64,000 bases of DNA from Chiloscyllium plagiosum (lineage: Eukaryota), in contig NC_057718.1 of the NCBI RefSeq assembly GCF_004010195.1, positions 88,015,424 through 88,079,423 on the forward strand. Reading direction: 5' to 3'. Below are positions 7,060 through 47,519 of the stretch, piece by piece. Numbering within the stretch: position 1 is the stretch's first letter; every line of letters starts with the position of its first letter. Below the pieces are notes generated by a model. The model had not been told where the DNA came from and made no database searches. It saw only the letters and a list, made by a program, of their open reading frames with translations. A program made the position numbers and the translations under genes.

Positions 7060-8420
7060 AACTGAGAGCAGAAGTAGGCTGATCCTCTATTTTGATGCCA
7101 TTATTCTAGCTTTCTCCCCATGTCACTTGATGCCCCTAACTGTTACCTCTGTCTTTCCTGAATATATTCAATGACCTGGCCTCCATCGCCTTCTGTGGGC
7201 AAGAATTAGATAGGCTCACTACCCTTGCAAGCGAAGAAATTTCCTCCTCTCATTGCTAAATGGCCTACTGATATTCTGAGCTTAAGTTCCCTGGTTCTAG
7301 ATTCTTCAATTGTAGTAAACCAACCTTCCTGCATCTGTCTGTCTAGTCATGTTTATAATTTTACATTTCAATTAGATCCCCTCACCCTTTAAATTATAAA
7401 TGGGTTTAGGCCCTACCAAACCAATCACCCCTCATTTGATGGTCCTGCTATCTGCAGTTTTAGCCTAGTGAACCTCTACACTCCCTTTATGGCAAGTAAT
7501 CCTTTCTTTTATAGGCCAGCCAAAACTGTATGCAATACTGTAGGCATAGTCTGAACAAGGAACTCTACAACTGCAGCAGGACATCCCTGCTTCTGAACTC
7601 AAATCTTCTCAAACTCAATATACCATTCACCTTTCTAATTTATTTACTGCATCCACTTGTGTACTTTCCTTGACTGGTATACAAGGTTACCCAGATCTCT
7701 CTATCCATCCACACTTTTCAACATATCATAATTTAATGCTTTCCTGTTTTTGCACTCTAAAATGTATAACTTCCCAGTTAGCCATGTTGTACTGCTTCTG
7801 CCACGTTGGTCAGTTCACTTGACTTGTCTAAATTATTTAGAAGCATCGGTATATTCTGCTCATAACACTCAATCCTACTCAGTTTTGTGTCATCAGCATA
7901 CTTGGAAATTTTGCATTTGGTTCCCTCATCCAGGTTATTTACATAAATCATGACTAGTTGGGGCTTAAGCACTGACTTTTATGGCATCCTACTAGTTACA
8001 GCCTGCCACTTGGTAAAAGACCCATTTCTTTCGATTCTGTTTCCTGTCTGTCTCACTCCATATTATCCCCATCCCATGTACTTAAATTTGTCCACTAATA
8101 CCAATGAGGTACTGTATTAAGGTACTGAAGAAGGGCTTATGCCCGAAACGTTGATTCTCCTGTTCCTTGGATGCTGCCTGACCTGCTGCGCTTTTCCAGC
8201 AACAAATTTTCAGCTCTGTATTAAGGTACTGTACTTCCACTGAATTGCTGTTGCCAGACTAGGAAGTTTAGTAAATACACCATGTCCACTGGTTCTCATT
8301 TTTCTAAGTTCCAGTAGATTTAATCATAATGTACTTTTAATAAACTGGCTTTATCCAATCCCATTAAAGCTTTCCACATGTACAGTTATCACAATAATAG
8401 GCTCTAGTATTTTCCCCACT
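7060..8420 (-). mobile_element. Old CR1 LINE fragment, interrupted by a hammerhead element
   Basis: ORF 7778-7972 IYVNNLDEGTKCKISKYADDTKL; CR1-type 3' tail toward 7060. Confidence 0.8.
8125..8218 (+). mobile_element. Short hammerhead-bearing non-autonomous element (family A)
   Basis: Starts CTGAAGA-A-GGGC(TTAT)GCCC-GAAA-CG-TT; flanked by 16-bp direct repeat CTGTATTAAGGTACTG (8112-8127, 8216-8231). Confidence 0.85.
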
Positions 8421-10616
8421 AATGAGTACAATATAATTAGATATTACAAATTAATATTTGAGATCTTTTATCACTGTTTTAATTTAAGAAACACAGCCGG
8501 ATAGTGAGATAATGAACAGACAATTTCCTTTATCAACTAATATCATTTAATACCCTGGACACTGGGCAAAACTCTTTTTTTCTAAATGGGGTTGTAAATT
8601 ATTATTTTACTTTCACCTGACAGCAAGCATTGTTTATGGTTTCTCTGCAAGATGGCACCTTTTTAAAACTGCAGCGTGACCACTCCAGGTTCTACACTCC
8701 AATTTTGAGTGCGACAAGGCCACTCACTGAATCATGTTTAATGTAAAGCTAGTGTCCTGTGTTCAGAGACTCAAGACTGCTTCTAGCTCAACATAATTTT
8801 AAACAGCCATATTGTCTTAAAATTAGCAATCCTGTTTGTTTTTCCTGGGGAAAATAAGTGAACTGGATGTGAAACCATTCCTCAAACCTGTTTGTGTTTT
8901 TTTGGTGCTGGCTTTGTACTATGTTGACATCCAGGAATGAGGATCTACAAAAGTGCTGTGGACTCGGGTGTTTACTAATGGAAAGCTATTTTCTCTCCGA
9001 CTGATGGAGTGACTTAATGATGTGCCACACCTTTTCCATTGAATTGCTATTGTCAGGCTAGTAAATTTAGTATTCTGAAAGGAGTCTTTTTAAATTAGAA
9101 TTCCTTGCAAAATTAGCAAGGAGTGCAACTGGTGTTCTAATAGTGTTTCAGTGCTTTTCCTCTTTATTGCCAATCAAGTTTAGTGGGCACTCTGCCTCAG
9201 TACGTACTTAACAAATGAGTGACATTTATTCAAGAGCTGAAGTACTTATTCAGCAAGAGACCTTTTAATGTTGCAGTAATTTTCTCTGAAAATAAGACTT
9301 CAGCACTGACCTATACTGTTAAAGAATGCATATTGACCTATTTCTACACGGTCTGTTTAGAATGCTGTCGTGAATCAGTAGTCACACTCAGCTGCAATGT
9401 AAAAGCACTAGTATCAATAGAGATTAACTGCTAAATATTAAACTGGGCAAAGTCCAAAGTTTATTAAATAACTCCTAATTTGCTTTCTAAGATTTTTCAA
9501 TTAAATCCATCTATGGAATGTCTCTCAAACTCATCCTGCTTATTAAGTGTACTTCAGTTGTAAAGGCACTGTATCATGAGTAAATTTTTAAAATATGCCA
9601 CACCATTATAAGACATCTTCCCATCTGAGAGGTGTTTTTTCTTACAACAAGGGATTACTTTCCAAAGTGTTTTTCAGTCAACCACATTCTTGCACCGTGG
9701 TCTCACGTACAGCAATGCAATTTAGGCCAAATCACCTGCTTTTAACGGTGTGGTTGAGGGATTGCCAGGATTTGGGAAGAGCTCTCTTGCTGATTTTTGG
9801 AATTGTGCCTTGGGATCTTTTAATGCTCCCTAAGGTTTCTCTTTGGGATTGCTTCCAGTAGTTTTCTGGAAATGATTTTAACTTTTTTTTGCTTTCCTTT
9901 TAATATTGGATAAGATTTGGAAGTGAGGGATAAGGTTGTTTAATAGTCAAGAATTGTGCATTTGGATAACAGAATCTGAAAGTTGTCCAATCTGTACCAT
10001 TTTTCCCCAGACTCTGGACACTTGGGTATCTAATGGTGGAAGTTTAGGAACACTTGGGGCAGGAGATCATTTTTGTGCAAGTTCCAGGAATATAACTAAT
10101 CAAAGATTGCAGTCCTAACTGTCATTGGAAGGCATACAAGAATCAACAATATATCTTGTGACATGTGGAATACTGAGGGGACATCAAAGGCTTGGTTTCC
10201 AGCAAATACTTTGAGTGTCTGACTTGACATGTCATCTTTTTAAATGAATGCAAGAATCACAATCAAAAAAATCCATGTGTAAATGTTCATTTCAATTACT
10301 TTTCCCTGAATTATATAAATTGAAATAGTGAAAATTCTAAAAATGAGACAGGCCTGTTTGCATCTGTAAAGAGGAAATGTTAGTTATAATAAAGGCTCCA
10401 TAAACTGAATCATGAATTTTCTCTTCTCTCCAGGTGTTGACCGTGTATCCAGCATCTTTTTCTTTTGAGATTACTAGCATCTGTATTTACCTAGTTTTAA
10501 GTTCAAATGGAATTGCGATCCCTGATGTACATGCTCAACAAAAGTTTTCAGCTGAAGGTTTTGGTCAAAAATGGCAAACCTTGTTGGATCTGTTCACCGA
10601 GCTGGGAATTTGTGTT

Positions 10617-10656
10617 GCAAACGTTTCATCCCCTGTCTAGGTGACATCCTCAGTGC
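10617..10656 (-). ncRNA. Minimal type I hammerhead ribozyme (family C, inverted copy)
   Basis: Reverse complement reads GCA-CTGAGGA-T-GTCACCTAGACAGGGGAT-GAAA-CG-TT-TGC; core intact, G-U closing pair in stem II, GUU triplet. Confidence 0.75.
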
Positions 10657-11238
10657 TTGGGAGCCTCCTGTGTAGCGCTTCTGTGATGTTTCCTCCGGCA
10701 TTTATAGTGATTTGTACCTGCTGCTTCCAGTTGTCAGTTCCAGCTGTCTGTCGCAGTGGCTGGTATATTGGGTCCAGGTCGATGTGCTTATTAATTGAAT
10801 CTGTGGATGAGTGCCATGCCTCTAGGAATTCCCTGGCTGTTCTCTGTTTGGCTTGTCCTNNNNNNNNNNNNNNNNNNNNNNNNNNNNNNNNNNNNNNNNN
10901 NNNNNNNNNNNNNNNNNNNNNNNNNNNNNNNNNNNNNNNNNNNNNNNNNNNNNNNNNNNNNNNNNNNNNNNNNNNNNNNNNNNNNNNNNNNNNNNNNNNN
11001 NNNNNNNNNNNNNNNNNNNNNNNNNNNNNNNNNNNNNNNNNNNNNNNNNNNNNNNNNNNNNNNNNNNNNNNNNNNNNNNNNNNNNNNNNNNNNNNNNNNN
11101 NNAATAAGCACATCGACCTGGACCCAATATACTGGCCACTGCAGCGGACAGCTGGAACTGACAACCGGAAGCAGCAGGTACAAATCACTATAAATGCCGG
11201 AGAAAACATCACAGAAATGCTTCACAGGAGGCTCTCAA

Positions 11239-11278
11239 GCACTGAGGATGTCACCTAGACAGGGGACGAAACGTCTGC
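11239..11278 (+). ncRNA. Minimal type I hammerhead ribozyme (family C, in a PLE terminal repeat)
   Basis: GCA-CTGAGGA-T-GTCACCT(AGAC)AGGGGAC-GAAA-CG-TC-TGC: stem I GCA/TGC, intact core, stem II with one mismatch, ACGU palindromic stem III, predicted cleavage after GUC at 11275. Confidence 0.85.
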
Positions 11279-11479
11279 AACACAAATTCCCAGCTCGGCG
11301 AACAGAACCACAACAACAAGCACCCAAGCTACAAATCTTCTCCCAAACTTTGAACACCATTTTGGAAGACCGTTTTATGTAAATGTTCTCTCAACTATTT
11401 GCTACTGACCCCAACAGTGTACTCTGCCAACAAGTTGTCATTCAGATTATTCCTGAAGTCCAGCAACAAAAGAGTTTTG

Positions 11480-11772: not shown

Positions 11773-12049
11773 ATTTTTTTTATTCTAGATGACACTCTCC
11801 AAAAACATAGCTTTAGTTTTAACTTGTATAGGGACAACACCCAGCTCTACATAACTATCTCTTGATTCCTGCTATGTTTTTGAATAGTTGGACTAGTTAG
11901 ATATTATTAATCAACCTGGTCAGATGTTATGATATGTCTGAAGGAGGTTAAATTTTAACCTAGGTTTTCTGAATCAAGATGTAGGGATGGTACCATTGCA
12001 CCACAAGAAAACCAATTAGATAGTCTATCTCCTATTCAGTAATAGACAA

Positions 12050-12660: not shown

Positions 12661-13770
12661 TCTACTGTGAAGTGTCTTAGAATGTTTTGCTATGTTCAAA
12701 CCAGTTTCTCATTCTAGCTCCGTTCTATGATCAAATTCAAATAAAATATTTGACATGTTCTCCTCAATCAAGGAACAACTTAATTTTAGCTGGTTACATT
12801 AGTCTTTGGGATAGAACTGCAAAGAAGCTCAATGGTTGATTATTGTTGTTATAGAAGTGCTGCTTTACTCCCCATAATCCTGTCTCATAGCAGTTGAGAT
12901 TGTACACTTGAATGTGCTTGCCTGTGCAAACAGGTATTTCTTTCTATGTGACTAGCCACCGGCAGAATTTACAATTTTCTGTGAATCCATCTAATTTCTC
13001 TATTATAAATCAACCTCTTTTGAAGCTGCTCTAGAAGTTTTGGTCTATATTTAAGAGCAAATAACACCTCCTGTAGTGTTTGCAAGTTGTTAGAATTACA
13101 GAATGTACAGTGCATGAACTGACCAACTGGATCGTATCAGTGTTTGCATTTCACACAAGCCACCTCCTGCTGCTCTTTAAATATCAGGAAGTGAGGCTTG
13201 CATATTTCTAAAAGTAAAAGGAATCTGACCCCGAAAGCCAACAGCACGTTAGTCTGACTTTCAGTTATATACAAGATGACTGAAAGACTCCAATGCATTG
13301 TACAAACATCTAACAAAGAAGGGGTTAATGGGGACTCTCAGCACGGTTTCGGGATTAAAAAAAAACTTGATTGGAAATGCATTGGTCTAGCAGCATTGGG
13401 AAAGAGAAACGGTTGGTGTATCAAGTCAAATAACTGTTGAAATTGGTAAAATGCAAACAAACATTCTTACACATCTGCAAGATGATCAGCATTGGCAGCA
13501 CTGCAATATTCAGGTTCTGCACGACAAAGCAACAGTGAACAGGGTATTGGAATATATTGGCATGACTACGTTAAATGAGAAATACTACTTGCCTGTAAAA
13601 GGGATGTTAAACCAGGATAGACAGTGATAAGAGTATTTTGTGACCACCCTCCACCTATTGTTTAGACTTTCAAAGAGATGATATGGAGATCATAAAAGTA
13701 TTTCAGGGTCCAAATAAATGAAGTTAACCTGGTGTTGTGATTTTTATAGTCCAACAGGTTTATTTGGAAA

Positions 13771-13805
13771 CACTAGCTTTCAGAGCATTGCTCCTTCATC
13801 AGGTG
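13771..13805 (-). ncRNA. Minimal type I hammerhead ribozyme (family B) downstream of a PLE GIY-YIG remnant
   Basis: Reverse complement CAC-CTGATGA-A-GGAGC(AAT)GCTCT-GAAA-GC-TA-GTG; core intact, G-U at the base of stem II. Confidence 0.8.
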
Positions 13806-14852
13806 GTTGTGGTGTATAAGAGCGTAAGACACATAATTTATAGCAAAAGTTTACAATTGATGGAACTGAAATTATATATTGAAAAAGACCTGGATTGTTT
13901 AAGTCTCTCATCTTTTAGACTGAACATGTTGGTTTCAGTTCTTTCATATATAATTTGCAGAACTACTTTGAAGTTACATTCTCAAGTGAACTTTAACAAT
14001 TGGTGTCATGTCGGTCCATTTAAGGTGTGAAGTGACCTGTCTGTGCCACAATGTTCAAACTGATTCTAATCTAAAAAAAATGGATTTACAGAATTTAACA
14101 TGGATTTATGCTGTTTTTGAGAAAAATAAAATGTAATTCTGCGAGTACAAATTCACTCCACAAACTTGGGTAGGGTAGGGTGGGGATGGGGGGGATTGTT
14201 ATGAGCCTCCGTGAGAGGGTGTGTGTGTGAATGTAAAGGGGTCTAAGTCTTGTGTGTGTGAATGTAAAGGGGTCTAAGTCTGTGAGAGGGTGTGGGAGTG
14301 TATGAGAGAGGGTGGGTGTGTGTGTGGGGTGCAGTGGGGTCACCTGTAGTGTGACATGAACCCAAGGTCCCAGTTGAGGCCATCCCCATGGGTACCAAAC
14401 TTGGCTATCAGCCTCTGCTTGGCCACTTGCATTGTTGCCTGTCCCAAAGTCCACCTTGGAGGACAGTCACCCGAAGGTCCGCGATTGAATGTCCTGGACT
14501 GCTGAAGTGTTCTCCGACTGAGAGGGAACACTCCTGTCTTTTAATTGTTGTGGGGTGTCCATTCACCTGTTGCCATAGCCTCTGCTCGGTCTTGCACAGA
14601 CAGTCTCACTTAGGGCACCTCCCACCTTTAAATGCATTATCTGGGCCGAAAAGACTCCATTGTTAAAATGCACTTGAGAATGTAACTTTAAAAAAGTTCT
14701 GCAATTTCAGTATGAAAGAACTGAAACCAACATGTTCATTCTAAAAGATGAGACTTAACAAACAATCCATAATATAATTTCAATATATAATTTCAGTTAC
14801 ATACTGTAAACTTTTGCTATAAATTCTGTCTTACAATCTTATACTCCTCAAC

Positions 14853-14886
14853 CACCTGATGAAGGAACAGTGTTCCAAAAGCTAGT
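14853..14886 (+). ncRNA. Hammerhead ribozyme relic (family B), catalytic core mutated
   Basis: CAC-CTGATGA-A-GGAAC(AGT)GTTCC-AAAA-GC-TA-GT; GAAA changed to AAAA (CpG-type decay of G12), so predicted inactive. Confidence 0.7.
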
Positions 14887-15078
14887 CCTTACAAATAAAC
14901 ATGTTGGTCCATAACCTGGTGTTGTGATTTTTAACTTTGTCCACCCCAATCCAATACCGGCATCTCCAAATCATGATTACCAAATAAATGAGCAATTGTG
15001 AGCTCCAATGTATAAGAGGACCAAAGGATGCAAAGTTTCCGAAACCACGGGACTGGATTAGATTCTGTTTTTCTCCTA

Positions 15079-15220
15079 GGTAAAAACAATGACTGCAGAT
15101 GCTGGAAACCAGATTCTGGATCAGTGGTGCTGGAAGAGCACAGCAATTCAGGCAGCAGAGCAGCTCGTCGGATGCTGCCTGAATTGCTGTGCTCTTCCAG
15201 CACCACTGATCCAGAATCTG
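15079..15220. mobile_element. Hairpin-shaped family A (A2 variant) element
   Basis: Perfect 48-bp inverted repeat (15110-15157 / 15173-15220); 13-bp direct repeat TCTGTTTTTCTCC at 15064-15076 and 15217-15229; body nearly identical to the 32661-32791 element. Confidence 0.88.
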
Positions 15221-16627
15221 TTTTTCTCCCGTCTGTTTCTGGAATGAATCGTTGACTTCTGACGATAATGAAAATCATGTGGATTTTGCTGTAGGTTGGA
15301 TGATCTTGATGTGGGTTTGAACTAGGGGACAGCTGAACATTGATCCTAATGTGTGCTATGTGAAATTCCGAATGTACCAAGATAGGAAAGATTGTAGAGC
15401 TGCAAATGCAGTTCAAATTCGTTAGCCATTTTTGGTGCAAAGCATTTAGCTATTCAATGATACAAACCTTTCCAGGTAAGAGTGAAGTGGGAAACCACCT
15501 GTTAGAAAATAATGGTTAGAAGGCACGTGGAAGCAATATTATCGCTAGCTTAGTCATCTCTTTTGTGAAGTTATTTAGTACCCAAAGTGGCCTGCAGTAT
15601 ATATGCTTGAATTTTAAAATATTCCAGTTGCATCAAGGCAAATTTTTAAATGGAGTACAGTAAGGAAAGTCAATTTGCATACAAACAATTAGTTACATTG
15701 GAGGACATGGCAGCTAATGGAATTTGAATTTTCAATTAATTTGTTTTAATTGCAGATTGTTTGTTTGTGTGTTGTGGAAATCCATTTGGTTCTTTTCTTG
15801 AAGAGAAGTCTGTTAAGCTCACCTGTTCTGGTCTAAATGTCACTGTAGATCCATCAGAAAAGTGGTTGATTCTTAATGCCATCTGCGGTGGCTTAACAAG
15901 CAACTTTGTTCAAGGCCAGTTAAGGATGGGCACCAATAACTAATATTGCTGACAACACCCATATCCCATGGTAGGATTATAATTAAAGTTGATGCACTGT
16001 TTGGAGTGGAGTTTGAATACTGAGCTGCCTGATATTTGGCAGGATTTTGTCATTTCAGCCAAAGGACGTTCTTCCATAGGTGGTAGTTTCAATAATTAAT
16101 GCTCACTTTTCACATCGTGAACAATTAAGCTTCATATAACTTGAGACTCCAAACTCCACTTAAACCTTCCACAATTGCTATTTTGCCATGCACAACCATC
16201 CTTTAAAACTGACTACTAAATGCCTACTTGGGATTGATAACTGCGAATGTCTTCCGAGTGAAATCACTATGAATTGAAGTATGAATAGGGAACAAGAACA
16301 AGCAACTGGGTTGTTTCAGCCTGTTCTGTCATTCAATAAGGTCATGGCTGACTTGATTTTAACCTTACTCCACATTCCTGCATATCCCTTTGGTAATCCA
16401 GAATCCAGCTGTGCCTTTAAAAATATTTTTAAAATTAATAAGTTTCCTCATCTGTGTTAAATTGGTGACCCTTTTTTCCCTTGTTCTGTAAGTGTCTCAC
16501 CCCATAATTGCTCATTGTTGTTTGGTCACATGTCAATATTCCTAGTACAGAGCTTTCCAGTTGATTTGGAAAGGCGAACAGGCTATTTGCTATCTGTCCG
16601 GATAATTCTTGACTATTCCACAAACTG

Positions 16628-16756
16628 AGAGAAAGTGAAGGCTGCAGATACTAGAGATCCGAGTCAAGAGTGGAGTGATGGAAAAGCACAGCAGGTCAGA
16701 CAGCATCCAAGGATCAGGAGAATCCACGTTTTGGGAAAAGCCCTTCATCAGGAATT
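16628..16756 (-). mobile_element. Family A element with a decayed hammerhead
   Basis: Reverse complement TTC-CTGATGA-A-GGGCTTTTCCCA-AAAC... followed by the family body ending CTGCAGCCTTCACTTTCTC. Confidence 0.8.
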
Positions 16757-19339: not shown

Positions 19340-22300
19340 GGTGATGGATTCTCAGGGGAATGTAGCACAAACAGCCAAGTTTCTGACATAGAGACTAGCT
19401 CTAATGCAATGAGGGGTACGTCGAGTTCAATTGTGTTAGGGAACTCTCTAGTCCGAGGCACAGACGATTCTCTGGCCAGCAGCGAAAAATCAGAATGGTG
19501 TGTTGCCTGCCTGAAGCCAGGATCAAGGATGACTCAGAGGGTGCAGAATGTCCTCAAGAGGGAGAGGGACCAGCAGGAAGTCATTGTACACGTCAGAACC
19601 AATGACATAGGAAGGGAAAAGGATGAATTTCTGAAGGGCAAATATAGAAAGGGGCAAAATTAAAATTCAAAATATCTAGGTTACTCTCAGTGCTGTGAGC
19701 TAGTGAGGGTAGGAATAGGAGGATACAGCAGATGATTGCATGGTAGAGAACTGAGGGAGGATATTCCTGGAAATACATCCAGGGAAGTTATTTGGGTTGA
19801 ACTGAGGAATAAGGAAGGGATTGGTCACCTTTTATTGGGATAGTATTATAGATCTCCTGATAGCAGGAAATTGAGAAACAAATTTGTAAGGAGACGTCCG
19901 TTATCTGTTAGCATAATAGAGTGGTTATGGTCAGGGATTTAACTTTCCAAACATAGACTGGGATGGCCTAGTGTTAAGGGTTCAGATGAAGAGGAATTTG
20001 CTAAGTGTGTACAAGAAAATTTTCTGATTCAGTAATGTGGATGTATCTACTAGAGAAGGTGCAAAACTTGACCTACTCTTGGGAAATAAGGCAGAGCAGA
20101 TGACTGAGGTGTCAGTGGGGGAGCACTTTGGGGTCAATGAACATAATTCTGTTAGTTTTAAAATAGTGATGGAAAAGGATAGACCAGATCTAAAGGTCTG
20201 GCAAGAACTTTCAAAAGTTTATTGGGGCAGAGCGCATGTTCGCAGGTAAAGGGACGGCTGGAAAAAGAGATGAGTCCAGAGACAGTATATTCCTGTTTGG
20301 CTGAAAGGAAAGGCTGATAGATATAGGGAGTGCTTGAGGACTAAAGAAATTGAGGGCTTGGCTTCGAAAAAGTAGGAAGCATATGTTGGGTATAGACAAG
20401 ATAGATCAAATGAATCCTTAGAAGTATAAAGGCAGAAGGAGTATACTTAAAAGGGAAATCAGGAGGGCGCAAAGGGGACATGAGATAGCTTTGACAAATA
20501 GAATTAAGAATCCAGTTTTTACAAATACATTAAGGACAAAAGGGCAACTCTGGAGAGAATAGGGCCCTTCAAAGATCAGCAAGGCAGCCTTTGAGATGGG
20601 AGAGATACTAGACAAGTATTTTGCATCAGTGTTTACTGTGGAAAAGGACATGGAAGATATAGAATGTAGGGAAATAGGTGGTGACATCTTGAAAAATGTC
20701 CGTATTATAGAAGAGGAAGTGTTGGATGTCTTGAAATGCAGAAAGGTGGATAAATCCCCAGGACCTGACCAAGTGTACCCTAGAACTCTGTGGGAAGCTA
20801 GAGAAGTGATTGCTGGGCCTCTTGCTGAGATATTTATATCATTGATAGTCACAGGTGAGGTGCTGGAAGTCTGGAGATTGGCTAACATGTTAGCCAATGT
20901 TTAAGAAGGGCGGTAAGGACAAGCCAAGGAACTATAGACCAGTGAGTCTGACATCAATGGTGGGCAAGTTGTTGGAGGGAAACCTGAGCGACAGGATGTA
21001 CATATATTTGGAAAGGCAAGGACTGATTACGGTTAGTCAACATGGCTTTGTCATGGGAAATCCTGTCTCTCAAACTTGAAGTAACAAAGAGGATTGAGGG
21101 CAGAGCAGTGGACGTGATCTATATATGGATTTCAGTAAGGCATTCAACAAGGTTCCCTATGGGAGACTGGTTAGTCAGGTTAGATCTCATCAAATACAAG
21201 GAGAAGTCTGACATCAATGGTGGGCAAGTTGTTGGAGGGAAACCTGAGCGACAGGATGTACATATATTTGGAAAGGCAAGGACTGATTACGGATAGTCAA
21301 CATGGCTTTGTCATGGGAAATCCTGTCTCACAAATTTGAAGTAACAAAGAGGATTGAGGGCAGAGCAGTGGACGTGATCTATATATGGATTTCAGTAAGG
21401 CATTCAACAAGGTTCCCTATGGGAGACTGGTTAGTCAGGTTAGATCTCATCAAATACAAGAAGAACTAACCATTTTTATACAGAATTGGCTCAAAGGTAG
21501 AAGACAGAGGGTGGTGGTGGAGGATTGTTTTTCAGACTGGAGGCCTGTGGCCAATGGAGTGCCACAAGGATTGATGCTGGGTCCACTACTTTTCTTCATT
21601 TATATAAATGATTTGGATGTGAGCATAAGAGGTACAGTTAGTAAGTTTGCAGATGATACCAAAATGGGAGGTGTAGTGGACAGTGAAGAAGGCTACTTAA
21701 GATTACAACGGAATCTTGACCAGATGGGCCAATGGGCTGAGAAGTGGCAGATGGAGTTTAATTCAGATAAATGCGAGGTGCTNNNNNNNNNNNNNNNNNN
21801 NNNNNNNNNNNNNNNNNNNNNNNNNNNNNNNNNNNNNNNNNNNNNNNNNNNNNNNNNNNNNNNNNNNNNNNNNNNNAGGACTTATACACTTAATGGTAAG
21901 GTCCTAGGGAGTGTTGCTGAACAAAGAGACCTTGGAGTGCAGGTTCATAGCTCCTTGAAAGTGGAGTCGCAGGTAGATAGGACAGTGAAGCCGGTGTTTG
22001 GTATGCTTTCCTTTATTGGTCAGAATATGGAGTATAGGAGTTGGGAGGTCATGTTACAGCTGTACAGGACATTGGTTAGGCCATTGTTGGAATATTGCGT
22101 GCAGTTCTGGTCTCCTTCCTATCTGAAGGATGTTGTGAAACTTGAGAGAGTTCAGAAAAGATTTTCAAGGATGTTACCAGGGTTGGAGGATTTGAGCTAT
22201 AGGGAGAGGTTGAATAGGTTGGAGCATCAGAGACTGCGGGTTGAGCTCAGAGGTTTATAAAATCATGAGAGGCATGGATAGGATAAATAGACCAAATCTT

Positions 22301-22613
22301 TTTCCCTGGGGTGGAGGTGTCCAGAACTAGAGGGCCTAGGTTTAAGGTGAAAGGGGAAAGATTTAAAAGAGTCCCTAAGGAGGCAACATTTTCCCAGGGT
22401 GGTACGTGTATGGAATGAGCTGCCAGAGAAATTAGTGGAGGCTGGTACAATTGCAACATTTAAAAGGCATCTGGATGGGTTTATGAGTAGGAAGAGTTTG
22501 AAGGGAAATGGACTGGGTCCTGGCAAGTGGGACTAGATTGAGGTGGGATAGCTAGTCAGTATGGATGAGTTGGACCAAAGGATCTGTTTCCGTGCTGTCC
22601 ATCTCTGACTCTA
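19340..22613 (+). mobile_element. Near full-length decayed CR1 LINE: ORF1 SGNH-esterase remnant, endonuclease, RT, 3' tail
   Basis: IVLGNSLVRGTD...VIVHVRTNDIGR (esterase blocks), GAKLDLLLGN, KSPGPDQVYPR, NYRPVSLTS, GVPQG...FADDTK, LEYCVQFWSP; many frameshifts; gap at 21783-21876. Confidence 0.95.
20945..21462 (+). repeat. 260-bp tandem duplication within CR1 RT
   Basis: AGTCTGACATCAATGGTGGG... starts at 20945 and again at 21205; only a few substitutions differ. Confidence 0.9.
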
Positions 22614-29329: not shown

Positions 29330-30345
29330 ATGTATGTAGTTTTTTGTGCTATTCAAGCACATCATGTCACACAGTGTATCAGACTAGTAGAACACAGTGC
29401 AGGATACACTGTATAGTGGTAGAAAATGTGCACAGAGAGAGATCAACATTAATGTTTGAGAGGTCCATTCAAAAGTCTGATAAGTGTCAAAGAAGCTGTT
29501 CTTGAATCTGTGCAGACTTTTATATCTTCAGCCCAATAACTGGGGTGGGAGGGGTCTTTGATTATGTAAGCTGCTTTCCTGAAAAAGCATGAAGAATAGA
29601 TGGAGTCAATGGATAGAAGGCTGGTTTGTAAGATAAATTGGGTTGTGTACATGACTCTAGTTTCTTGTGGAGAAAGTGAGGACTGCAGATGCTGGAGATC
29701 AGAGCTGAAAATGTGTTGCTGGAAAAGCGCAGCAGGTCAGGCAGCATCCAAGGAATACGAGAATCGACGTTTCGGGCATAAGCCCTACTTCTAGTTTCTT
29801 GTGGTCTTGGGAAGAGCAGCTGCCATACCATGCTGATTTGCATCCAGATTGGATGCTTTCTATGGTGTATCAAGAATAATTGGTAAGAGTCTTTTTCGAC
29901 ATGCCAAATTTCTTTAGCCTCCTAAAGGAGAGGTGTTGTGCTTTCTTGACCGTTGCATTGATGTGGGTGGACCAGGACAGATTTTTATCATCACTCCCTG
30001 GCATTTGACACTCTAGATCATCTCCACTCGACACCATTGATACAGACAGGGGCATACCCTCCACAACGCTTTCTGAAGTCAATGAGCAACTCTCCATTTT
30101 GCTGGTGTTGATGGAGAGATTGTACACCATGCCACTAAGCACTCAATCACATTCCTGTATTCATTCTCATTGTTTGAGATCTGACCTACAATGGTGGAGT
30201 TAGCAAACTTGTCATTGGAGTTGGGGCACAATTTGGCAACAAAGTAGTGTATAAGGACTGTGGTAGGGGTCTGAGTTTGCAGCCTTGCGGGGCAATGGTG
30301 TTGAAAATTATTGTGGAGGAGGTGTTATCGCTGAACCAGCAGCTT
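29330..30345 (-). mobile_element. Rex1/Babar-type LINE RT 3' fragment
   Basis: APQGCKLRPLPQSLYT, LSWSTHINATVKKAQ..LSFRRLKKFGMSKKTLTN and FRKAAYIIKDPSHPS motifs, typical of fish Rex1/Babar RT. Confidence 0.75.
29669..29790 (-). mobile_element. Family A element nested in the Rex1/Babar LINE
   Basis: Reverse complement GGGC(TTAT)GCCC-GAAA-CG-TC-GATTC...; 5' core truncated; 15-bp direct repeat TCTAGTTTCTTGTGG at 29656-29670 and 29790-29804. Confidence 0.88.
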
Positions 30346-32660
30346 GGATATCTCTTTCTGGAGCGCAAATACAAAAAAAAAAAAAATTTTGGCCTGCTTA
30401 AGGAAGTGTCTCAAAAGCTGAGCACTGTTACTGCAGGAAAAGATCCTATACCCAAGTCTGAATGTGAATGTTCATATCACGTAATTGGATAGTAATGACC
30501 CAGAACTTATACTGTCTTCTCATCGAAGTGAATCACATTGCTAGTCATAGTCAGAGTCCTAGAGGTGTACAGCATGGAAACAGACCCTTCGGTCCAACCC
30601 ATCCATGCTAACCAGATATTCCAACCCAATCTAGTCCCACCTGCCAGCACCTGGCCCATATCCCTCCAACCCCTTCCCATTCATATACCCATCCAAATGC
30701 CTCTTAAATGTTGTAATTGTACCAGCCTCCACCACTTCCTCTTCCAGCTCATTCCATACTCCGTACCATCCTCTGTGTGAAAAAGTTGCCCCTTAGGTCT
30801 CTTTTTTATCTTTCCCCTCTCACCCTAAACCTATGCCCTCTAGTTCTGGACTCCCCCACCCCAGGGAAATGTCTGTCTGTTTACCCTATCCATGCCCCTC
30901 ATAATTTTGTAAACCTCTGTAAGGTCACCATTCAGCCTCCGACGCTCCAGGGAATACAGCCCCAGCCTGTTCAGCCTCTCCCTATAGCTCAAATCCTCCA
31001 ACCCTGGCAACATCCTTTGTGAATCTTTTCTGAACCCTTTCAAATTTCACAACCTCTTTCTGATAGGAAGGAGACCAGAATTGCATGCAATATTCCAACA
31101 GTGGCCTAACTAATGTCCTGTACAGCCGCAACATGATCTCCCAACTCCTGTACTTCAGTACTCTGACCAATAAAAGGAAGCATACCAAACGCCGCCTTCT
31201 ATCCTATCTCCCTGCGACTTCACTTTCGAGGAGCTATGAACCTGCACTCCAAGGTCTTTGTTCAGCAACACTCCCTCTGACCTTACCATTTGTGTATAAG
31301 TCCTGCTAAGATTTGCTTTCCCAAAATGCAGCACTTCTCATTTATCTGAATTAAACTCCATTAGCCCATCTGGTCCAGATCATATTGTAATCTGAGGTAA
31401 CCCTCATCGCTGTCCACTACACCACCAATTTTGGTGTCATCTGCAAACTTACTAACTGTACCTCTTATGCTCGCATCCAAATCATTTATGTAAATTGCAA
31501 GAAGGACCCAGCATTGATCCTTGTGGCAATCCACTGGTCACAGACCTCCAGTCTGAAAAACAACCCTCCCACCACCACCCTCTGTCTTCTACTTTTGAGC
31601 CAGTTCTGAATCCAAATGGCTAGTTCTCCCTGTATTCCGTGAGATCTAACCTTGCTAACCAGTCTCCCATGGAAAACCTTGTGGAACGCCTTACTGAAGT
31701 CCACATCTACACAGCTGTCCTCATCAATCCTCTCTGTTACTACTTCAAAAAACTCAATCAAGTTTGAGACATGATTTCCCACGCACAAAGCCATGTTGAC
31801 TGTCCCTAATCAGTCCTTGCCTTTCCAAATACGTGTACATCCTGTCCCTCAGGATTCCCTCCAACAACTTGCCCACCGCCGAGGTCAGACTCACTGGTCT
31901 ATAGTTCTCTGGCTTGTCCTTACCACCCTTCTTATACAGTGGCACCATGTTAGCCAACCTCCAATCCTCCGGCACCTCACCTGTGACTATCGACGATAGA
32001 AATATCTCAGCAAGAGGCCCAGCAATCACTTTTCTCTAGCTTCCCACAGAGTTCTAGGGTACACCTGATCAAGTCCTGGGGATTTACCCATTTCTAGACA
32101 TCCAGCACTTCCTCCTCTGTAATCTGGACATTTTGCAAGATGTCACCATCTATTTCCCTACAGTCTATATCTTCCATATCCTTTTCCACAGTAAATAATA
32201 ATGCAAAATATTCATTTAGTATCTCCCCCATTTTCTGCGGCTCCACACAAAGGCTGCCTGGCTGATCTTTGAGGGGCCCTATTCTCTTCCCTAGTTACCC
32301 ATTTATCCTTAATGTATTTGTAAAGACCCTTTGGATTCTCCTTAATTTTATTTGCCAAAGCTATCTCATGTCCCCTTTTTTTTTGCATCCTGATTTTTCT
32401 CTCAAGTATACTCCTACTTTCTTTATACTCGAAGGATTCACTCAATCTATCCTGTCTATACCTTACATATGCTGCTTTCTTTCTTAAGCAAACCTTCAAT
32501 TTCTTTAGTCATCCAGCATTCCCTATACCTACCAGCCTTTCCTTTCACCCTGACAGGAATATACTTTCTCTGGTCTCTCATTATCTCATTTCTGAAGGCT
32601 TCCCATTTTCCAAATGTCCCTATACCTGCGAACATCTGCCTCCAATCAGCTTTCAAAATT

Positions 32661-32692
32661 TCCTGATGAAGGGCTTTTGCCCGAAACGTCGA
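32661..32692 (+). ncRNA. Minimal type I hammerhead ribozyme (family A), intact core
   Basis: TC-CTGATGA-A-GGGC(TTTT)GCCC-GAAA-CG-TC-GA; ACGU palindromic stem III, GUC triplet ending 32690; stem I is short. Confidence 0.8.
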
Positions 32693-32791
32693 TTTTGCTG
32701 AAGCTCCTCGATGCTGCCTGAATTGCTGTGCTCTTCCAGCACCATTGATCCAGAATCTGGTTTCCAGCATCTGCAGTCATTGTTTTTACCT
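32661..32791 (+). mobile_element. Family A (A2) hammerhead element nested in CR1
   Basis: 11-bp direct repeat TTCAAAATTTC at 32652-32662 and 32791-32801; CR1 sequence resumes on both sides. Confidence 0.9.
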
Positions 32792-33859
32792 TCAAAATTT
32801 CTTGCCTACTACTATCAAAATTGGCTTTCCTCCAATTTAGAACTTCAGCTTTTAGATCTGGTCTATCCTTTTCCATCACTATTTTAAAACGAATAGAATT
32901 ATGGTCGCTGGCCCCAAAGTGCTCCCCCACTGACACCTCAGTCACCTACTCTTGTGAAATAAGGCAGGGCAGGTCAAGTTTTGCACCTTCTCTAGTAGGT
33001 CCATCCACACACTGAATCAGAAAATTGTCTGTGCACACTTAACAAATTCCTCTCCATCTAAACACTTAGATTGGGACTGCCATAGTGTTATGTTTGGAAA
33101 GTTAAAATTCCCTACCATAACCACCCTATTATTCTTACAGATAGCCAAGATCTCCTTACAAGTTTGTTTTGCAATTTCCCTCTTACTATTAGGGAGTCTA
33201 TAATACAATCCCAATAAGGTAATCATCCCTTTTCTTCTTTCTCAGTTCCACCCAAATATGTTTTCCTGGATGTATTTCCAAGAATATCCTCTCTCAGCAC
33301 AGCTGTAATGCTATCCCTTATCAAAAATCCCACTCCTCCTCTTGCCTTCCTTTCTATCCTTCCTGTAGCATTTGTATCCTTAACACATGGATATGACCCC
33401 TGAAAGTTGTTTATTTTTCCTCCTTCAAACAGTTGTTACATGAGGATATGTATCAGAAGAATTGTTATGACGGCAAGTCTGCAGGTGTTGTTGTAGTTCT
33501 GCCAGGCTGTGGTTTGGATATTGAGACATCTTAATGTGGTATAGTCTTCCTGAAAGTGGTGCGAGGAGCTCTGAGTGAAAAGTTGGAAATAATGTTTGTC
33601 ATGCAAAGTACTTTGGGCTAGAATTTTCTTGCAAGCTAATGGTAAATTAAATTTGTATGTTTTTTTTAAAGGCACTCAGCAACTTATACTAAGAAAGATG
33701 CCTCTTAAGTTGCAAATTGCCACAAGTTCCTGATGATTGAGGTGGGACCTTGCTGTCAGCCTGCCCGAGTGTTTCAGTAAATTGCTGCATTTGTAATACT
33801 ACTATGAATTAAGCTGTTATCGTGAATTATTCCACTTTTTTTTTAAATGAAGAAATGTG

Positions 33860-42615: not shown

Positions 42616-44473
42616 TTGACCTTCATTTTAAAAATGTTCTTTTTCTCTTGAATAGTGACATCAGGATCTTGGCCTTGAATGGTGGCTACTTTATTTCATG
42701 TATTTGCACATCATTAAAATCCCAACAACCATTGTTTACATCCCAATAGCAATTCTCTTGGCCTCCTTTTTAAAAAGAAAACTAGATGTAAGTTCCCAAA
42801 GGTCAAGACTGGTATTTTCAGATCACCAAGTATCTGTCCTGGCCATCCTGACACTGCTGTTAATGTACAACACTCCTCCATGCTCTAAGGTTCATCATCC
42901 TCCTTGACCTTTCAGCCACGTGACTCCACATCAGGCAACCACATTATGATGTTTACTATTGGAACATCTCAGCCATGACTTCAGTTCTTGAATGTTACTT
43001 TGGAGCTGTTGAATGCCTAGGACGTGCAAGATTTTGCCAGTCACTTTTTGTGTGCAGGGACAGCCGTGAATTTCTTGGGTCTACACAGTATGCTTTAGTG
43101 CTGACATAGACATTCATCCAAGAGCTCTTAGCTTGCTTTCTTGTTCCTCATTGAGTTACAGGCTGCAAGCCTTTGTATGGATTTTATTGCTTTCTTTTTA
43201 ATAATGCTTTGGGTCTTGAGTGCTCAGTTGCAGGCACCTCTGCAGTTTGCTTCTCCGAGCTAAAAAGCCAATCGGCTTGTGACAGGTGGAATGAGACACC
43301 AAAGAGTCAATGTGTCAGTCAGACAGTATGGCACTTTGAATTAAATGTAGCAGTGCTACAGCAGCTTATGTGGCAAACATGCTACATGAGTTTGAAGCAA
43401 GTGATTTTTGAAAGTTAATGGGGAAGGAGCCCTTGAAATGAAAGGGGTCTATCATAGATAGTTGAGGGCCTCATTTGATTACACAATGGTTGGTCCTCCT
43501 ATCTGAATTACAGGTTGGTCAGTTGGGGGCTGCCATGTACCAAAAGGATTAGTCATTTGGGAGGATGATGGTGAGAGGCGTTGAATGGACATCGTACATA
43601 TACTTATGAGAGCTGTAGTCCATCAGCCTTGTAACCTGTCCAGTAGTAAAGTGATGGGTACTGGCCTTTTTGGAGTGTGAGAAAGAAGAGAGGAGGTAGT
43701 GGCATTTACCCTTGAACATTAGTCAGCAGTGCTGCAAGGTCAAATGATCTATCTATATATTTAGACTCTGCATGGGTCAGTGCTGAATTATTTCTGACTA
43801 GGCTGGCTGGTCTGTTGGCATGCTGGTAGTGGTGTATATTTAATTCTGTCTTCCCATCTTTGCCTCTAGCTTTGGTCATGCAAACTTTTATTAATATAGA
43901 AACATTTAGCAAACTGCAGGAAAATGATATTAATTTGGGTAGAAACAGGGAATTAAACGCTGAAGAATTCTCTTGACAACTGGAGCTGTCTGAGAAATGG
44001 GAGGCCTTCATTCAATCTTATCAGTTGGTTGTGATATTTATTTCTGCAACTTTTTTGGTATTCAGTTTGGAGATATGATCATGGTTGGTGAAGCTGATTC
44101 TTGTGGCTTGGCAAGTCGTAGTGGAGGATATATGTCTGCTGATTTGGTGGAGGACTGCTTTCAGAAACTAGATAGTTTCTATCTAGCCCATTCCCCTCCT
44201 GCCATCAGGCAATAAGTGGTTATAATATCTAGAATCTGTGCATCAGAAATCACACTTTTCATTGTGTGGGTTTTACACAGCATGCACAAGCCAAGGGCCA
44301 AAGCACAACATGGAAAGAACATGTCCACATTATCGTCCTGCATGCCCTACTGAATTTATTGTTGACTATCTTCTATTTATTAATTTAAAAATAACACAAG
44401 ACCAGGTCATAGTCCAAAAGGTTTATTTGGAAGCACTAGCTTTCAAAGTGTGTTTCTTCTTCAGATGATTGAC

Positions 44474-44508
44474 CACCTGATGAAGAAGCAGCGCTTCGAA
44501 AGCTAGTG
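44474..44508 (+). ncRNA. Minimal type I hammerhead ribozyme (family B), intact
   Basis: CAC-CTGATGA-A-GAAGC(AGC)GCTTC-GAAA-GC-TA-GTG: stem I CAC/GTG, perfect 5-bp stem II, AGCU palindromic stem III, predicted cleavage after CUA at 44505. Confidence 0.85.
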
Positions 44509-44543
44509 CTACCAAATAAACCTGTTGGACTATAACCTGGTGT

Positions 44544-44731
44544 TGAAAAATGTGTTGCTGGAAAAGCGCAGCAGGTCAGGCAGCATCCAAGGAGCAGGAG
44601 AATCGACGTTAAGGGCTCATGCCCGAAATGTCGATTCTCCTGCTGCTTGGATGCTGCCTGACCTGCTGCGCTTTTCCAGCAACACATTTTTCAGCTCTGA
44701 TCTCCAGCATCTGCAGTCCTCATTTTCTCCT
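44544..44731. mobile_element. Family A hairpin element nested in family B element
   Basis: ~65-bp inverted arms (44544-44610 / 44627-44693) around GGGC(TCAT)GCCC-GAAA; 10-bp direct repeat AACCTGGTGT at 44534-44543 and 44735-44744. Confidence 0.88.
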
Positions 44732-46719
44732 AAAAACCTGGTGTGTGTTTTAACTTTGTCCACCCCCAGTCCAACACCAGTTCCTCCAAATCATGATTTC
44801 TATTTAGGAATCTTAGTTTTGGACTTTGCTATAAGTGAAAACATCTTTCCCTATAATCATCCTCTAATTGTAAAGATGATTACCCAGCTTGTTTTGATTT
44901 TTAATTCACATGCATGTCCCCCCAAGCTGTTTTCTTTGGTTAATTTTACTTTCATGAAAAGACAATACATTTTAGTTGTGGCCTGTTTTTCCTATTGGTT
45001 CATATTCCATAAAACTTCATTTCACCATGATCTGACTTTAACTGTACATTATTAAACATTGGGCAGATGGAAATGGGGTCTGCTGGAGAGGGAGGTATGA
45101 TGGTGTTTTATTTTTAACATCTCTCATTTAAAAATTTCTTTTACTGACCCAGATAAAAGGAGCAATGAAAATGTTCCAGCAAATTCATTCATTCCCTGTT
45201 CATTTTGATAAATGGTCAAATGTGACAGCATGACACATTTGAAGACGGTGGATGGGGCGGGGGTGGGGGGGGGTGACCACAAAATAAGAGTGCCTAACAG
45301 CAGATGTTTCAGATGCTCGGGAATACTGTGAAAACTTCTTGTGAAAGTCTTTTCTCATTTCCTTGACACACAATCACTACTTCCACTTTTCTTTTGCTCG
45401 CTAGCTCACACTCCCAATAGTACTTTGTCCTTGTTTCCACATCCATTTTTTAAGATGTTTCAAACTTCTAACTGGAACACAGTCCACAAATGAATATACA
45501 GAATCCAAACAGATTTGATTCAGGGTTAAAGGTAAGAGAAACTTGCACCTCTGATTTTATTTTAGTCCTGACTTAATGGCATTTGCTCACTTTTAACTTG
45601 TAATTTCTTTACATCTTTGGATTGATCTTGTCCACTTGATCAGTGGAATCCAGCACCTTAACCATTTAAAATCCTTTTCCTTTCTCTCCACCTCTGTACC
45701 TACTTGCTTTATTTGGCTGTCCTTGCAGATAACCCATCCTTTCCCACCAAAGTACTCACTCTGTTTTTGTCGTCTTTTCCCTGCATATGCCTCCTTGCTT
45801 CTCTTCCCTCCCTGATTTCTCTTTCTATGCATGCTGTCAAATTTTTCTCCTCTCATTACTACTACCAGTCAACCTTCATTTCAATTTTCTTTGACTATTT
45901 TGTGGTTCTGCATATGTCACTTCACAAATCCAGTTGTTAGTACTTTGCAAATGTATAATCAGTAACAGCCAGTGTGTAGCAAAATTCTGAAAAGGAATGG
46001 TGGGTCTAAGTCTCATTCATTGTGGCTTGTGCATCTACAAATTTTTGTTTTAACCTATTCAACAAATCTTGAGGTCAGATAATTATTGCTTTTTGTATCC
46101 CCTGTGTGTTCATGACTGGGAGGTAGGAATCTGTTCTCTTCCCCTTTCTCATTATCTTTCCTTTTTTTTATCTTTCCCATCTGCCTCATTCAGTCCCACT
46201 GGTAGGAGTGAGTCTCATTGCCATTCCCACTTCTGAATCAGAGTTTGAAAACTACTCCAGAGCTCCAGCTTTGACTTCTGCATTGACGTCTTATCGTTGG
46301 CTCTAGAGTTCGCTCTCTTATTCTCTCACTCTGTCCCCTCTGGCAGGTTTACCTGATCTGTGCTAGATATAACTGCTTGATAAGTTTTGTGGTATGATTG
46401 TAGGTAACCTCTAGGTCCCATCTTCCAATGCTTGAGAGCTATGGACAGTGTTGGTGAGTTGGCTCAGAATGAACTAACTGGGAAGTTGTCCCTTTCTCTG
46501 CAACAGTAATTTCATACCATCAACTCCAACAAGAAAAGATCCACTTTTCTGGAGTACCTTTCAAAACCTCAACACATCACAATGTTCCACAGCCAGTGAA
46601 ATACATTTTGTAGTCACTGTAATGATGAAAATGGTACACGATTTCCACATGGCATCACATATACAAAGATAAATAATCCAGTCAAACACTCCTGATGTTG
46701 ATCGAGGCATAAATATTAA

Positions 46720-46900
46720 TCAGAGTCTAGAGTGTGGTGCTGGAAAAGCACAGTAGGTCAAACAGCATCCGAGGAGCAGGAGAATCGATGTTTCAGGCAT
46801 AAGCCCTTCATCAGGAATGGCTCATCAGGGCTTATTTCTGTGCTTTTTCAGCACCACACTCTCAACTCTGATGTCCAGCATCTGCAGTCCTCACTTTCTC
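46720..46900. mobile_element. Family A hairpin element nested in a minus-strand SacSINE1-like SINE (~46520-47120)
   Basis: Minus-strand hammerhead ATTC-CTGATGA-A-GGGC(TTAT)GCCT-GAAA-CA-TC at ~46783-46818; direct repeat ATAAATATT(A/G)ATCA at 46709-46722 and 46904-46917. Confidence 0.82.
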
Positions 46901-47519
46901 TTAATAAATATTGATCAAAACATCAGGGAAATTAAAGACTTTGTGGCTCTTGCAAATGTTGCCATCGGATCTTTTATAGGCATTTAGAAGGGCTGGAAAC
47001 TACTGTTTTGTTGTCTTGCCTAAAAATGGTACTTCCAGTCCAACACTCCTTCACTTCCACACTGGAGCATTTTGAATTGGACTGGACCAATTATTTCTGA
47101 CTTGAACAAAGTGCTACTAATCAAAACATGGCTAATAACTGAATAGTCAAGAATTGCAAATGAAGTAATAAATGTGGACACAGATTTTTCTTTAACTCAA
47201 TGTCTGTAGAAAGTAGAAGAAATGGCAATGAGAAACATTTTTAGATGTTCAGGGCTCTTTAAATGCTCTTGTGGTGAATGTGTCCTGAATAGAAATGCTG
47301 CCCTGCAGTGCTGGCAAACTGCCACCTTGTGAAATCAGCAAAAAGTGGAGCCTCCTGTCTAAATTTTAATGTAGCTGATGGCTCATCTCGGCTGATCGTT
47401 AATCTTCTGACTGGTGCCAAGAGTTAGCTGCGGGTCAACTATGAGTGAGGACTGCATTCAGCACTGCTGCACATTGCGATGTGCACCTTTTCTGCACAGA
47501 CTCAGATGAAGAAAACCCT

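What the first reader, a model, noticed from the sequence alone, without database searches (positions are those of the whole stretch)
8112..46917. A mobile, non-coding ~130-nt hammerhead-ribozyme element family (family A) with target-site duplications
Seen: seven related insertions (8125, 15079, 16628, 29669, 32661, 44544, 46720) share a short body GATGCTGCCTGA..CTGCTG.GCT.TTCCAGCA...CCAGCATCTGCAGTC. Six begin with all or part of CTGA(T/A)GA-A-GGGC-4nt-GCCC-GAAA-CG-TC; the 15079 copy lacks it. Six have 10-16 bp flanking direct repeats and five sit inside other transposons. None has an ORF or Pol III boxes. Two 3'-end subtypes exist (..CTCACTTTCTCC and ..CATTGTTTTTACCT). Known: this core is the minimal type I hammerhead associated with Penelope-like elements, whose palindromic stem III works as a dimer. 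Inference: a recently active ribozyme-carrying non-autonomous retroelement mobilised by a PLE RT/GIY-YIG. At this density it could be very abundant genome-wide. I cannot tell whether it is already catalogued.
Basis: partly seen in the sequence, partly recalled or inferred. Interest (0 to 1): 0.85.

Follow-up and report, generated by a model that had tools for sequence, protein, structure and literature searches.

The report
Penelope retroelement stubs headed by hammerheads
The seven short inserts are real, but they are the ribozyme-bearing end piece of a very abundant Penelope-like jumping gene in a shark-like genome, not a separate mobile family; their ends likely record where the parent's RNA begins and where its reverse transcriptase starts copying.

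Summary
All seven copies are present. The 130-nt unit is the terminal module of a protein-coding Penelope-like element (PLE; reverse transcriptase plus C-terminal GIY-YIG nuclease, Neptune-type linker). It follows the ORF in 24 of 29 nuclease-selected loci and also precedes the ORF start. The minimal type I hammerhead is real, with 46,872 exact copies of the core motif genome-wide and compensatory changes against a second PLE family, but only 1 of the 7 window copies keeps an intact core. I estimate about 4-6 x 10^5 insertions, 2% of the genome. The 3' ends fall at two sites about 35 nt apart (the PLE 'tail'). Head-to-head pairs carry one end of each kind in 36 of 39 cases. The 5' ends pile up at the ribozyme's front edge (68 of 134), not at its cut site (4 of 134). 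Target-site duplications are 9-19 bp. Most likely the stubs are short reverse-transcription products of the parent RNA. Solo minimal hammerheads, tails and inverted 5' copies of PLEs are all published. This scan reported the same family many times on other DNA of this genome. Verdict: new member of a known kind; self-cleavage untested.

The parts
8125..8215 (+). Solo PLE end-module stub, subtype ..CTCACTTTCTCC lineage, tail-less (ends at the proximal 3' site); hammerhead lacks the stem I 5' strand. Flanking repeat 8112-8127 / 8216-8231, partly overlapping the element ends.
15077..15216 (.). Head-to-head pair: left arm on - (about 15077-15157) ends at the distal site ..CATTGTTTTTACC; right arm on + (15164-15216) ends at the proximal site. 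No hammerhead. 13-bp exact target duplication (15064-15076 / 15217-15229).
16628..16756 (-). Older solo stub with tail (best other genome copy 91%); degenerate hammerhead; weak 9-bp flanking repeat
29669..29789 (-). Solo stub with tail, 5'-truncated inside the core (no CUGA); 15-bp target duplication; inserted in another repeat
32661..32790 (+). Solo stub with tail, youngest subtype, 100% identical to 27 other listed loci; flanking repeat 32652-32665 / 32791-32804 (1 mismatch); inserted in another repeat
32659..32694 (+). Minimal type I hammerhead motif: core CUGAUGA 32663-32669, extra A, stem II 32671-32682, GAAA, loopless palindromic stem III (A-CG-U), predicted cut after C32690; stem I weak
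   Evidence: activity not tested
44544..44734 (.). Head-to-head pair (left arm on -, proximal end; right arm on +, distal end), joined inside the hammerhead; 10-bp target duplication; inserted into a copy of a second PLE end family
46720..46903 (.). Head-to-head pair (left arm on - with hammerhead start, proximal end; 18-nt spacer; right arm on + from mid-module to the distal end); 14-bp target duplication with 1 mismatch
44382..44797 (.). Host of the 44544 insert: head-to-head pair of a second, sequence-unrelated PLE end module (family E) with its own minimal hammerhead at 44477; it resumes after the insert

Best explanation
These inserts are the hammerhead-plus-tail end module of an abundant protein-coding Penelope-like retroelement, likely laid down as short target-primed reverse-transcription products of the parent RNA rather than by a separate non-autonomous family. 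Shown: the module stands after the ORF stop (about 200 nt of UTR between) and again just before the ORF start; copies end at one of two 3' sites about 35 nt apart; head-to-head pairs carry one end of each kind; 5' ends pile up at the first bases of the ribozyme; target duplications vary from 9 to 19 bp. [quoted passage not shown]
For: 22 of 30 loci matching 32661 continue upstream into a shared UTR (counted by eye) that leads to a GIY-YIG frame. Reciprocal test: 24 of 29 loci picked by the nuclease protein alone have the module downstream on the same strand. L065 shows module-ORF-module. The other subtype also runs into the same ORF start in L168 and L180/L181. In 0.965 Mb of position-chosen tiles: 50 head-to-head pairs, of which 36 are distal+proximal, 2 distal+distal, 1 proximal+proximal and 11 unclassifiable (p=3.6e-8 against 0.5; 28 of 28 classifiable TSD-validated pairs). 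TSDs in 26 of 43 close pairs against 0 of 129 shuffled. 5' ends: 68 of 134 in positions -3..11, 3 in -20..-4, 4 at the cut site. Only 17,877 of 43,981 exact copies reaching the edge keep the parent's next 6 bases. 7 of the 14 ORF-continuing copies that reach the ribozyme start stop at the same edge. 5 of 7 modules joined directly behind a piece of the ORF start begin at -1..3. Family E repeats both patterns: 14 of 16 pairs distal+proximal, and 23 of 47 5' ends within 2-12 nt of its core. Anole PLE: two internal RT start sites bounding the tail, both strands cut and extended, ribozyme cleavage not needed for insertion (PMC11167929).
Against: No RNA end was seen. In one single-cell poly(A) run 1,769 reads lay on both strands about equally over the module, with no start or end pile-up; a second run gave 0 reads. 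That is a weak test. 27 of 134 arms run well upstream of the edge, so other templates exist. The two arms of a pair are usually the same variant (median identity 0.94 against 0.86 between pairs; one clear mismatch, L110), which fits one RNA or a snap-back as well as two RNAs. The initiator-like match at the edge is uninformative (0-8 chance matches per upstream UTR, and no evident match in family E). No gap-free, intact full-length ORF was recovered. In Drosophila Penelope the start site lies upstream of an intron that ends at helix I (PMC2377424, PMC4209133), a different arrangement. One insertion (L010) re-copied a solo stub with its flank.
Confidence: 0.78

Rival explanations
1. Same parent, but the stubs are ordinary 5'-truncated copies started at the 3' terminal repeat. 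The sharp 5' edge is a pause or drop-off point for the RT (folded ribozyme, bound protein, or the pyrimidine tract upstream), or an RNA trimmed back to the ribozyme, not a transcription start.
For: Heavy 5' truncation is typical of PLEs (PMC8557442). Coverage falls steadily from module to nuclease to RT to N-terminus. The edge hugs helix I in two unrelated families, which a structure-based cause would explain.
Against: A stall on structure should fall at the 3' side of the fold, not after it has been copied. Only 3 of 134 ends fall in the next 17 nt upstream. ORF-continuing copies and jump junctions stop at the same place.
Confidence: 0.3
2. One reading: a self-standing non-autonomous ribozyme element (retrozyme- or SINE-like) whose short copies are themselves transcribed, self-cleaved and remobilised by the PLE protein.
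For: Stubs outnumber ORF pieces by about ten to one or more. Only 814 exact matches read on into the ORF, against 18,528 for the tail of that subtype. L010 contains a re-copied solo stub plus about 290 nt of the unique flank of L028 inside one TSD-bounded insertion. Vertebrate non-LTR retrozymes derive from PLE termini (bioRxiv 10.64898/2026.07.22.740005).
Against: No tandem arrays (1 adjacent same-strand pair in 211 arms). No Pol III boxes. Ends do not match the cut site. Copies identical to 32661 mostly continue into the parent UTR. Both subtypes map onto ORF-bearing parents.
Confidence: 0.12
3. The palindromes arise by self-priming (snap-back), possibly on an antisense template, rather than by priming from both target strands.
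For: Proposed for rotifer PLEs (PMC3846280). Arms are usually the same variant. Many centres show short microhomology overlaps.
Against: It does not by itself explain why the second arm ends precisely at the proximal site, which is also the end of half the classifiable solo copies (50 distal, 50 proximal). L110 has different variants in its two arms.
Confidence: 0.2
4. A TIR DNA transposon or MITE.
For: About 30% of insertions are palindromic.
Against: TSD length varies from 9 to 19 bp. The two ends are unequal and the centres variable. The sequence is contiguous with an RT/GIY-YIG ORF.
Confidence: 0.01

Closest known systems
Minimal hammerheads (min-HHR) in the pseudo-LTRs of metazoan Penelope-like elements (Cervera & De la Pena 2014, PMC4209133; parts 1-2 of 4 of the text read)
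   Same: Loopless palindromic stem III, extra base between 9 and 10.1, G10.1-C11.1; mostly single dispersed motifs attributed to truncated PLEs; pairs on opposite strands noted
   Different: Stem II here is 4 bp and stem I is weak (U.U mismatch). Copy number (46,872 exact motifs) is far above the 4,000-9,000 they give for coelacanth and Xenopus. Sharks are not named in the parts read.
Poseidon of Anolis carolinensis, PAc (Frangieh et al. 2024, PMC11167929; main text read)
   Same: Hammerhead at the pLTR/ORF junction, two 3' end sites bounding an optional tail, repeat on both sides of the ORF, AT-leaning targets (TSDs 65% AT against 59% background)
   Different: The parent here has the CX4CxxC linker that Poseidon lacks. 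The ORF's first in-frame ATG lies about 40 nt beyond the tail instead of inside the ribozyme, so the module is likely 5' UTR.
Neptune/Nematis-type EN+ PLEs and their insertion architecture (Craig et al. 2021, PMC8557442; Arkhipova et al. 2013, PMC3846280; passages read)
   Same: RT, CX2-5CxxC linker, C-terminal GIY-YIG; 5' truncation, inverted 5' copy, 30-40-bp tail at one end only, partial tandems, variable TSD
   Different: The passages read describe these features qualitatively. They do not report a pile-up of 5' ends at the ribozyme's front edge, or stubs at hundreds of thousands of copies.
Animal non-LTR retrozymes (Cervera & De la Pena 2020, PMC7229834, passages; Li et al. bioRxiv 10.64898/2026.07.22.740005, parts 1-3 of 5)
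   Same: Non-coding, type I hammerhead, related to PLE termini, present in the one chondrichthyan sampled
   Different: Retrozymes are defined by head-to-tail tandem units. These copies are solo or head-to-head, and the motif is the minimal form.

Membership tests
EN+ Penelope-like element (parent) | RT followed by C-terminal GIY-YIG nuclease in one ORF | tested here: met
   One 504-aa and one 441-aa natural frame hold both. GIY-YIG is above the Pfam cut-off (22.9 and 23.2 bits); RVT_1 is below it (E 0.004-0.009). Homologues in sharks, rays and invertebrates. No intact full-length ORF was recovered.
EN+ Penelope-like element (parent) | Pseudo-LTR bearing a hammerhead on both sides of the ORF | tested here: met
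   L065: module at 427-554 and 3810-3899 around the ORF
EN+ Penelope-like element (parent) | Optional 30-40-bp tail at one end; inverted 5' copy; variable TSD | tested here: met
Neptune/Nematis clades | [quoted passage not shown] | tested here: met
   CX4CxxC and CxxC visible in the translations; criterion from PMC8557442
Neptune/Nematis clades | RT phylogeny separating Neptune from Nematis | not tested
   No labelled reference proteins were fetched and no tree was built
Minimal type I hammerhead (min-HHR) | Core, extra base at 9/10.1, G10.1-C11.1, palindromic 15.2-16.2 | tested here: met
   48 descriptor hits in 964,978 bases (41 family A, 5 family E, 2 other), 0 in the reversed control. Core 3.7% off the column majority against 11.8% downstream. 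Stems II and III change in compensating pairs between families A and E. Intact in 54 of 116 arms and in 1 of 7 window copies.
Minimal type I hammerhead (min-HHR) | Self-cleavage as a dimer or with protein help | not testable with these tools
   RNA reads showed no end pile-up (weak test). Monomer folding z-scores were -1.2 to +0.9.
Non-LTR retrozyme | Head-to-tail tandem units each with a hammerhead | tested here: not met
   1 adjacent same-strand pair among 211 arms; rare arrays elsewhere in the genome are not excluded
Non-LTR retrozyme | Unit-length linear and circular RNA | not testable with these tools
   Only poly(A) single-cell reads and contigs were available
SINE | Internal Pol III boxes and a tRNA/5S/7SL head | tested here: not met
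   No A- or B-box pattern in 7 copies; no Rfam family near threshold in the window
TIR DNA transposon / MITE | Fixed-length TSD and equal terminal inverted repeats | tested here: not met
   TSD 9-19 bp; unequal ends

The most novel reading that the evidence does not exclude
The stubs are complete cDNAs of the first 95-130 bases of the PLE transcript. The element's RNA starts at the first base of its hammerhead, and a dimeric RT-nuclease primes both target strands at once, one at each of the two internal start sites near the RNA's 5' end. It then jumps from that 5' end onto further RNA to build partial tandems. About 2% of this shark genome would then be a natural, half-million-copy record of the unresolved PLE insertion cycle, with the ribozyme placed to remove the cap-bearing first 30 bases rather than to cut out the mobile unit.
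Probability: 0.35. Interest if true: 0.55.

Novelty: new member of a known kind. Interest (0 to 1): 0.3.

Why it matters
As a family it is ordinary for a PLE-rich genome, though its scale (about 2% of the genome from a 130-nt module) matters for annotating shark repeats. Its value is mechanistic. How PLEs make their tail, inverted and tandem structures is called unresolved in PMC8557442, and the end statistics here give sharp predictions: an RNA 5' end at the ribozyme's edge, and one start site per target strand. Both can be tested with 5'-RACE and the existing anole in vitro system.

Tried and rejected
Rfam: no hammerhead model reached E<=1 in the window; the only hit was a chance mir-1245 match on the family E palindrome. 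RNA folding of single copies gave no significant stability. RNA evidence: no RNA holder was listed; one raw run gave two-strand coverage with 94% of reads running on into unlike sequence, and the other gave nothing, so both are inconclusive. An initiator motif at the 5' edge was set aside as too common by chance. A 3' splice site as the cause of the edge was set aside: AG positions differ among subtypes and do not match the peak. Comparing arms for one versus two templates was inconclusive. A pair count on the MAFFT alignment was not obtained, because families A and E are one column out of register; counts were used instead. Literature: searches for hammerhead+Penelope+shark, Penelope+shark+Chiloscyllium+transposable, Neptune+Penelope+hammerhead, Penelope+elasmobranch+repeat landscape and Penelope+template jump+twin priming+inverted listed no description of this shark family. 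Repbase and Dfam were not searchable. Lunse et al. (PMC5785218) was not held and is known here only through a review passage (PMC6765202). Supplements of the bioRxiv paper, which list chondrichthyan retrozyme families, could not be seen and may include this sequence.
Full report
Observation. A profile from 89 natural copies finds ten arms in the window, because 15079, 44544 and 46720 are each two arms head to head; it finds nothing in reversed sequence. Six have flanking repeats of 10-18 bp, and 16628 has only 9 bp with a mismatch. Three are shown to interrupt other repeats; the other two claimed could not be confirmed in 1.62 Mb of loci. Only 32661 passes a minimal hammerhead descriptor. Rfam has no matching model.

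Host and abundance. The window lies in a 3.56-Gb genome. The parent protein's closest named relatives are from Chiloscyllium punctatum (85-87%), whale and zebra shark (63-68%) and rays (51-59%), so the host is likely a carpet shark (inference). In 80 position-chosen 10-kb tiles (772,958 called bases) there are 161 arms covering 2.0% of the DNA. These form 123 insertions, or 90 with weak solo hits dropped (116 per Mb, bootstrap 93-142), which extrapolates to about 4-6 x 10^5 genome-wide. An exact 32-base hammerhead pattern occurs 46,872 times, against 0 for the reversed control. 28 of the 40 scored candidates are 100% identical to 32661 over its full length, one being the window copy, so activity was recent.

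What it is. Of 30 loci fetched with 32661, 22 continue upstream into one shared pyrimidine-rich sequence (by eye), which leads back to a GIY-YIG frame and RT pieces. In the reciprocal test, 24 of 29 loci chosen by the nuclease protein alone carry the module downstream on the same strand, mostly about 200 nt past the stop. The other five are gapped or cut short, three of them at one shared junction. L065 has the module, then the ORF start, RT and nuclease (with an assembly gap), then the module again. Thirty further loci show the module reading on into the ORF, whose first in-frame ATG lies about 40 nt past the tail. The ..CTCACTTTCTCC subtype does the same in L168 and L180/L181 and follows nuclease remnants in several loci. 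Natural frames of 441 and 504 aa hold RT and GIY-YIG together, with a CX4CxxC linker that marks Neptune/Nematis rather than Penelope/Poseidon by the criterion in PMC8557442 (no tree built). So family A is the pseudo-LTR end plus tail of several PLE subfamilies.

Ends. The 3' ends are bimodal: among solo arms, 50 distal, 50 proximal and 25 other. For one subtype, 18,528 exact matches to the tail's last 32 bases stand against 814 for an equally long pattern that reads on into the ORF. Of 50 head-to-head pairs outside the window, 36 have one distal and one proximal end, 2 have two distal, 1 has two proximal, and 11 have an unclassifiable arm (p=3.6e-8); all 28 classifiable TSD-validated pairs are mixed. 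Tail-to-tail and same-strand neighbours occurred once each. TSDs were found in 26 of 43 close pairs (0 of 129 shuffled) and 23 of 83 strong solos (12 of 246 shuffled); they are 9-19 bp long with a mode of 14-15. The 5' ends were mapped for 134 of 211 arms (77 dropped as under 88% identical to a reference or too short). With the A four bases before the core numbered 3: 68 fall in -3..11 (40 in 2..6), 3 in -20..-4, 27 further upstream, and 4 at the cut site. Genome-wide, 17,877 of 43,981 exact copies reaching that A keep the parent's next six bases; point change alone at about 4% per base would keep roughly 78%, though upstream sub-variants also lower the count. Seven of the 14 ORF-continuing copies that reach the ribozyme start stop at this edge. 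In 7 of those 30 loci a piece of the ORF start is joined directly to a second module, and 5 of these modules begin at -1..3, as expected if RT reaches an RNA end and jumps. A second, unrelated PLE end family (E; a copy hosts the 44544 insert; a nuclease C-terminal remnant lies upstream in L292) repeats both patterns: 14 of 16 pairs are mixed, and 23 of 47 5' ends lie 2-12 nt before its core, with none between 13 and 90.

Ribozyme. The motif meets the published min-HHR features (PMC4209133). Among 108 clustered arms the non-CpG core differs from the column majority at 40 of 1,073 cells (3.7%), stems at 5.7%, the downstream body at 11.8% and the loop and other free positions at 17.2%. The largest cluster lumps subfamilies, so this reflects conservation between parent lineages, not selection on dispersed copies. 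Families A and E share the core and differ by paired changes in stems I, II and III. Stem I of family A has a U.U mismatch that older subfamilies lack. Activity is untested. In the anole element, cleavage needed protein and was dispensable for insertion (PMC11167929).

Mechanism. Shown: position in the parent, two 3' ends, one-of-each pairing, the 5' edge, and variable TSDs. From the literature: the anole PLE cuts and extends both target strands and starts RT at two internal sites that bound the tail. Inferred: each target strand is primed at one site, and the edge is the template's 5' end, so most stubs are complete short cDNAs. Against or open: RNA reads gave no end signal and equal strands; a fifth of arms pass the edge; arms of a pair are usually the same variant, with L110 the one clear exception; and L010 shows that a solo stub with its flank can be re-copied, so stubs are occasional templates.

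Known and new. Solo min-HHRs from truncated PLEs, opposite-strand pairs, tails at one end and inverted 5' copies are published (PMC4209133, PMC3846280, PMC8557442). Five searches listed no account of this shark family, but Repbase, Dfam and preprint supplements were not seen. This scan has reported the same family, palindromes and 5' pile-up on other DNA of this genome (my reading was noted, before that look-up). Verdict: real, ordinary in kind, useful as a mechanistic record; interest 0.3.

Noticed in passing
window 44382-44797 and 14847-14978, 13744-13812: A second PLE end family (E) with its own minimal hammerhead (5-bp stem II, A-GC-U stem III, UA cut triplet); 56 arms in the 80 random tiles; same two-end pairing and 5' pile-up; nuclease C-terminal remnant upstream in L292.
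   Followed up: partly
L010 (G000:C18:55151877-55155006) and L028 (G000:C1:21707088-21710217): A 13-bp-TSD-bounded insertion at L010 holds a PLE ORF piece, then 375 nt 100% identical to the L028 locus (a solo stub plus unique flank), then a terminal module: a host sequence likely captured by template jumping.
   Followed up: partly
L104, L108, L113, L122, L129: Mini partial tandems: module, first 500-600 nt of the ORF region, then a second module starting at the ribozyme's front edge.
   Followed up: partly
L035, L042, L052: Three loci share the same break in the PLE 3' UTR followed by the same several hundred bases of other sequence: a duplicated segment or a mobile chimera.
   Followed up: no
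L111:850-1380: In run X19 the nuclease and 3' UTR part shows about a 2-3:1 strand bias in mates, unlike the module itself (about 1:1); the direction was not resolved.
   Followed up: no
window 1826-3047, 20272-22615, 30555-32290, 50021-50442, 61759-63945: Long dispersed repeats of another abundant family (direct and inverted, 70-93% alike), with a 300-aa frame at 21358-22260; not PLE by tblastn.
   Followed up: no
window 10585-11310: A 208-bp inverted repeat (93%) around an assembly gap (10860-11102).
   Followed up: no
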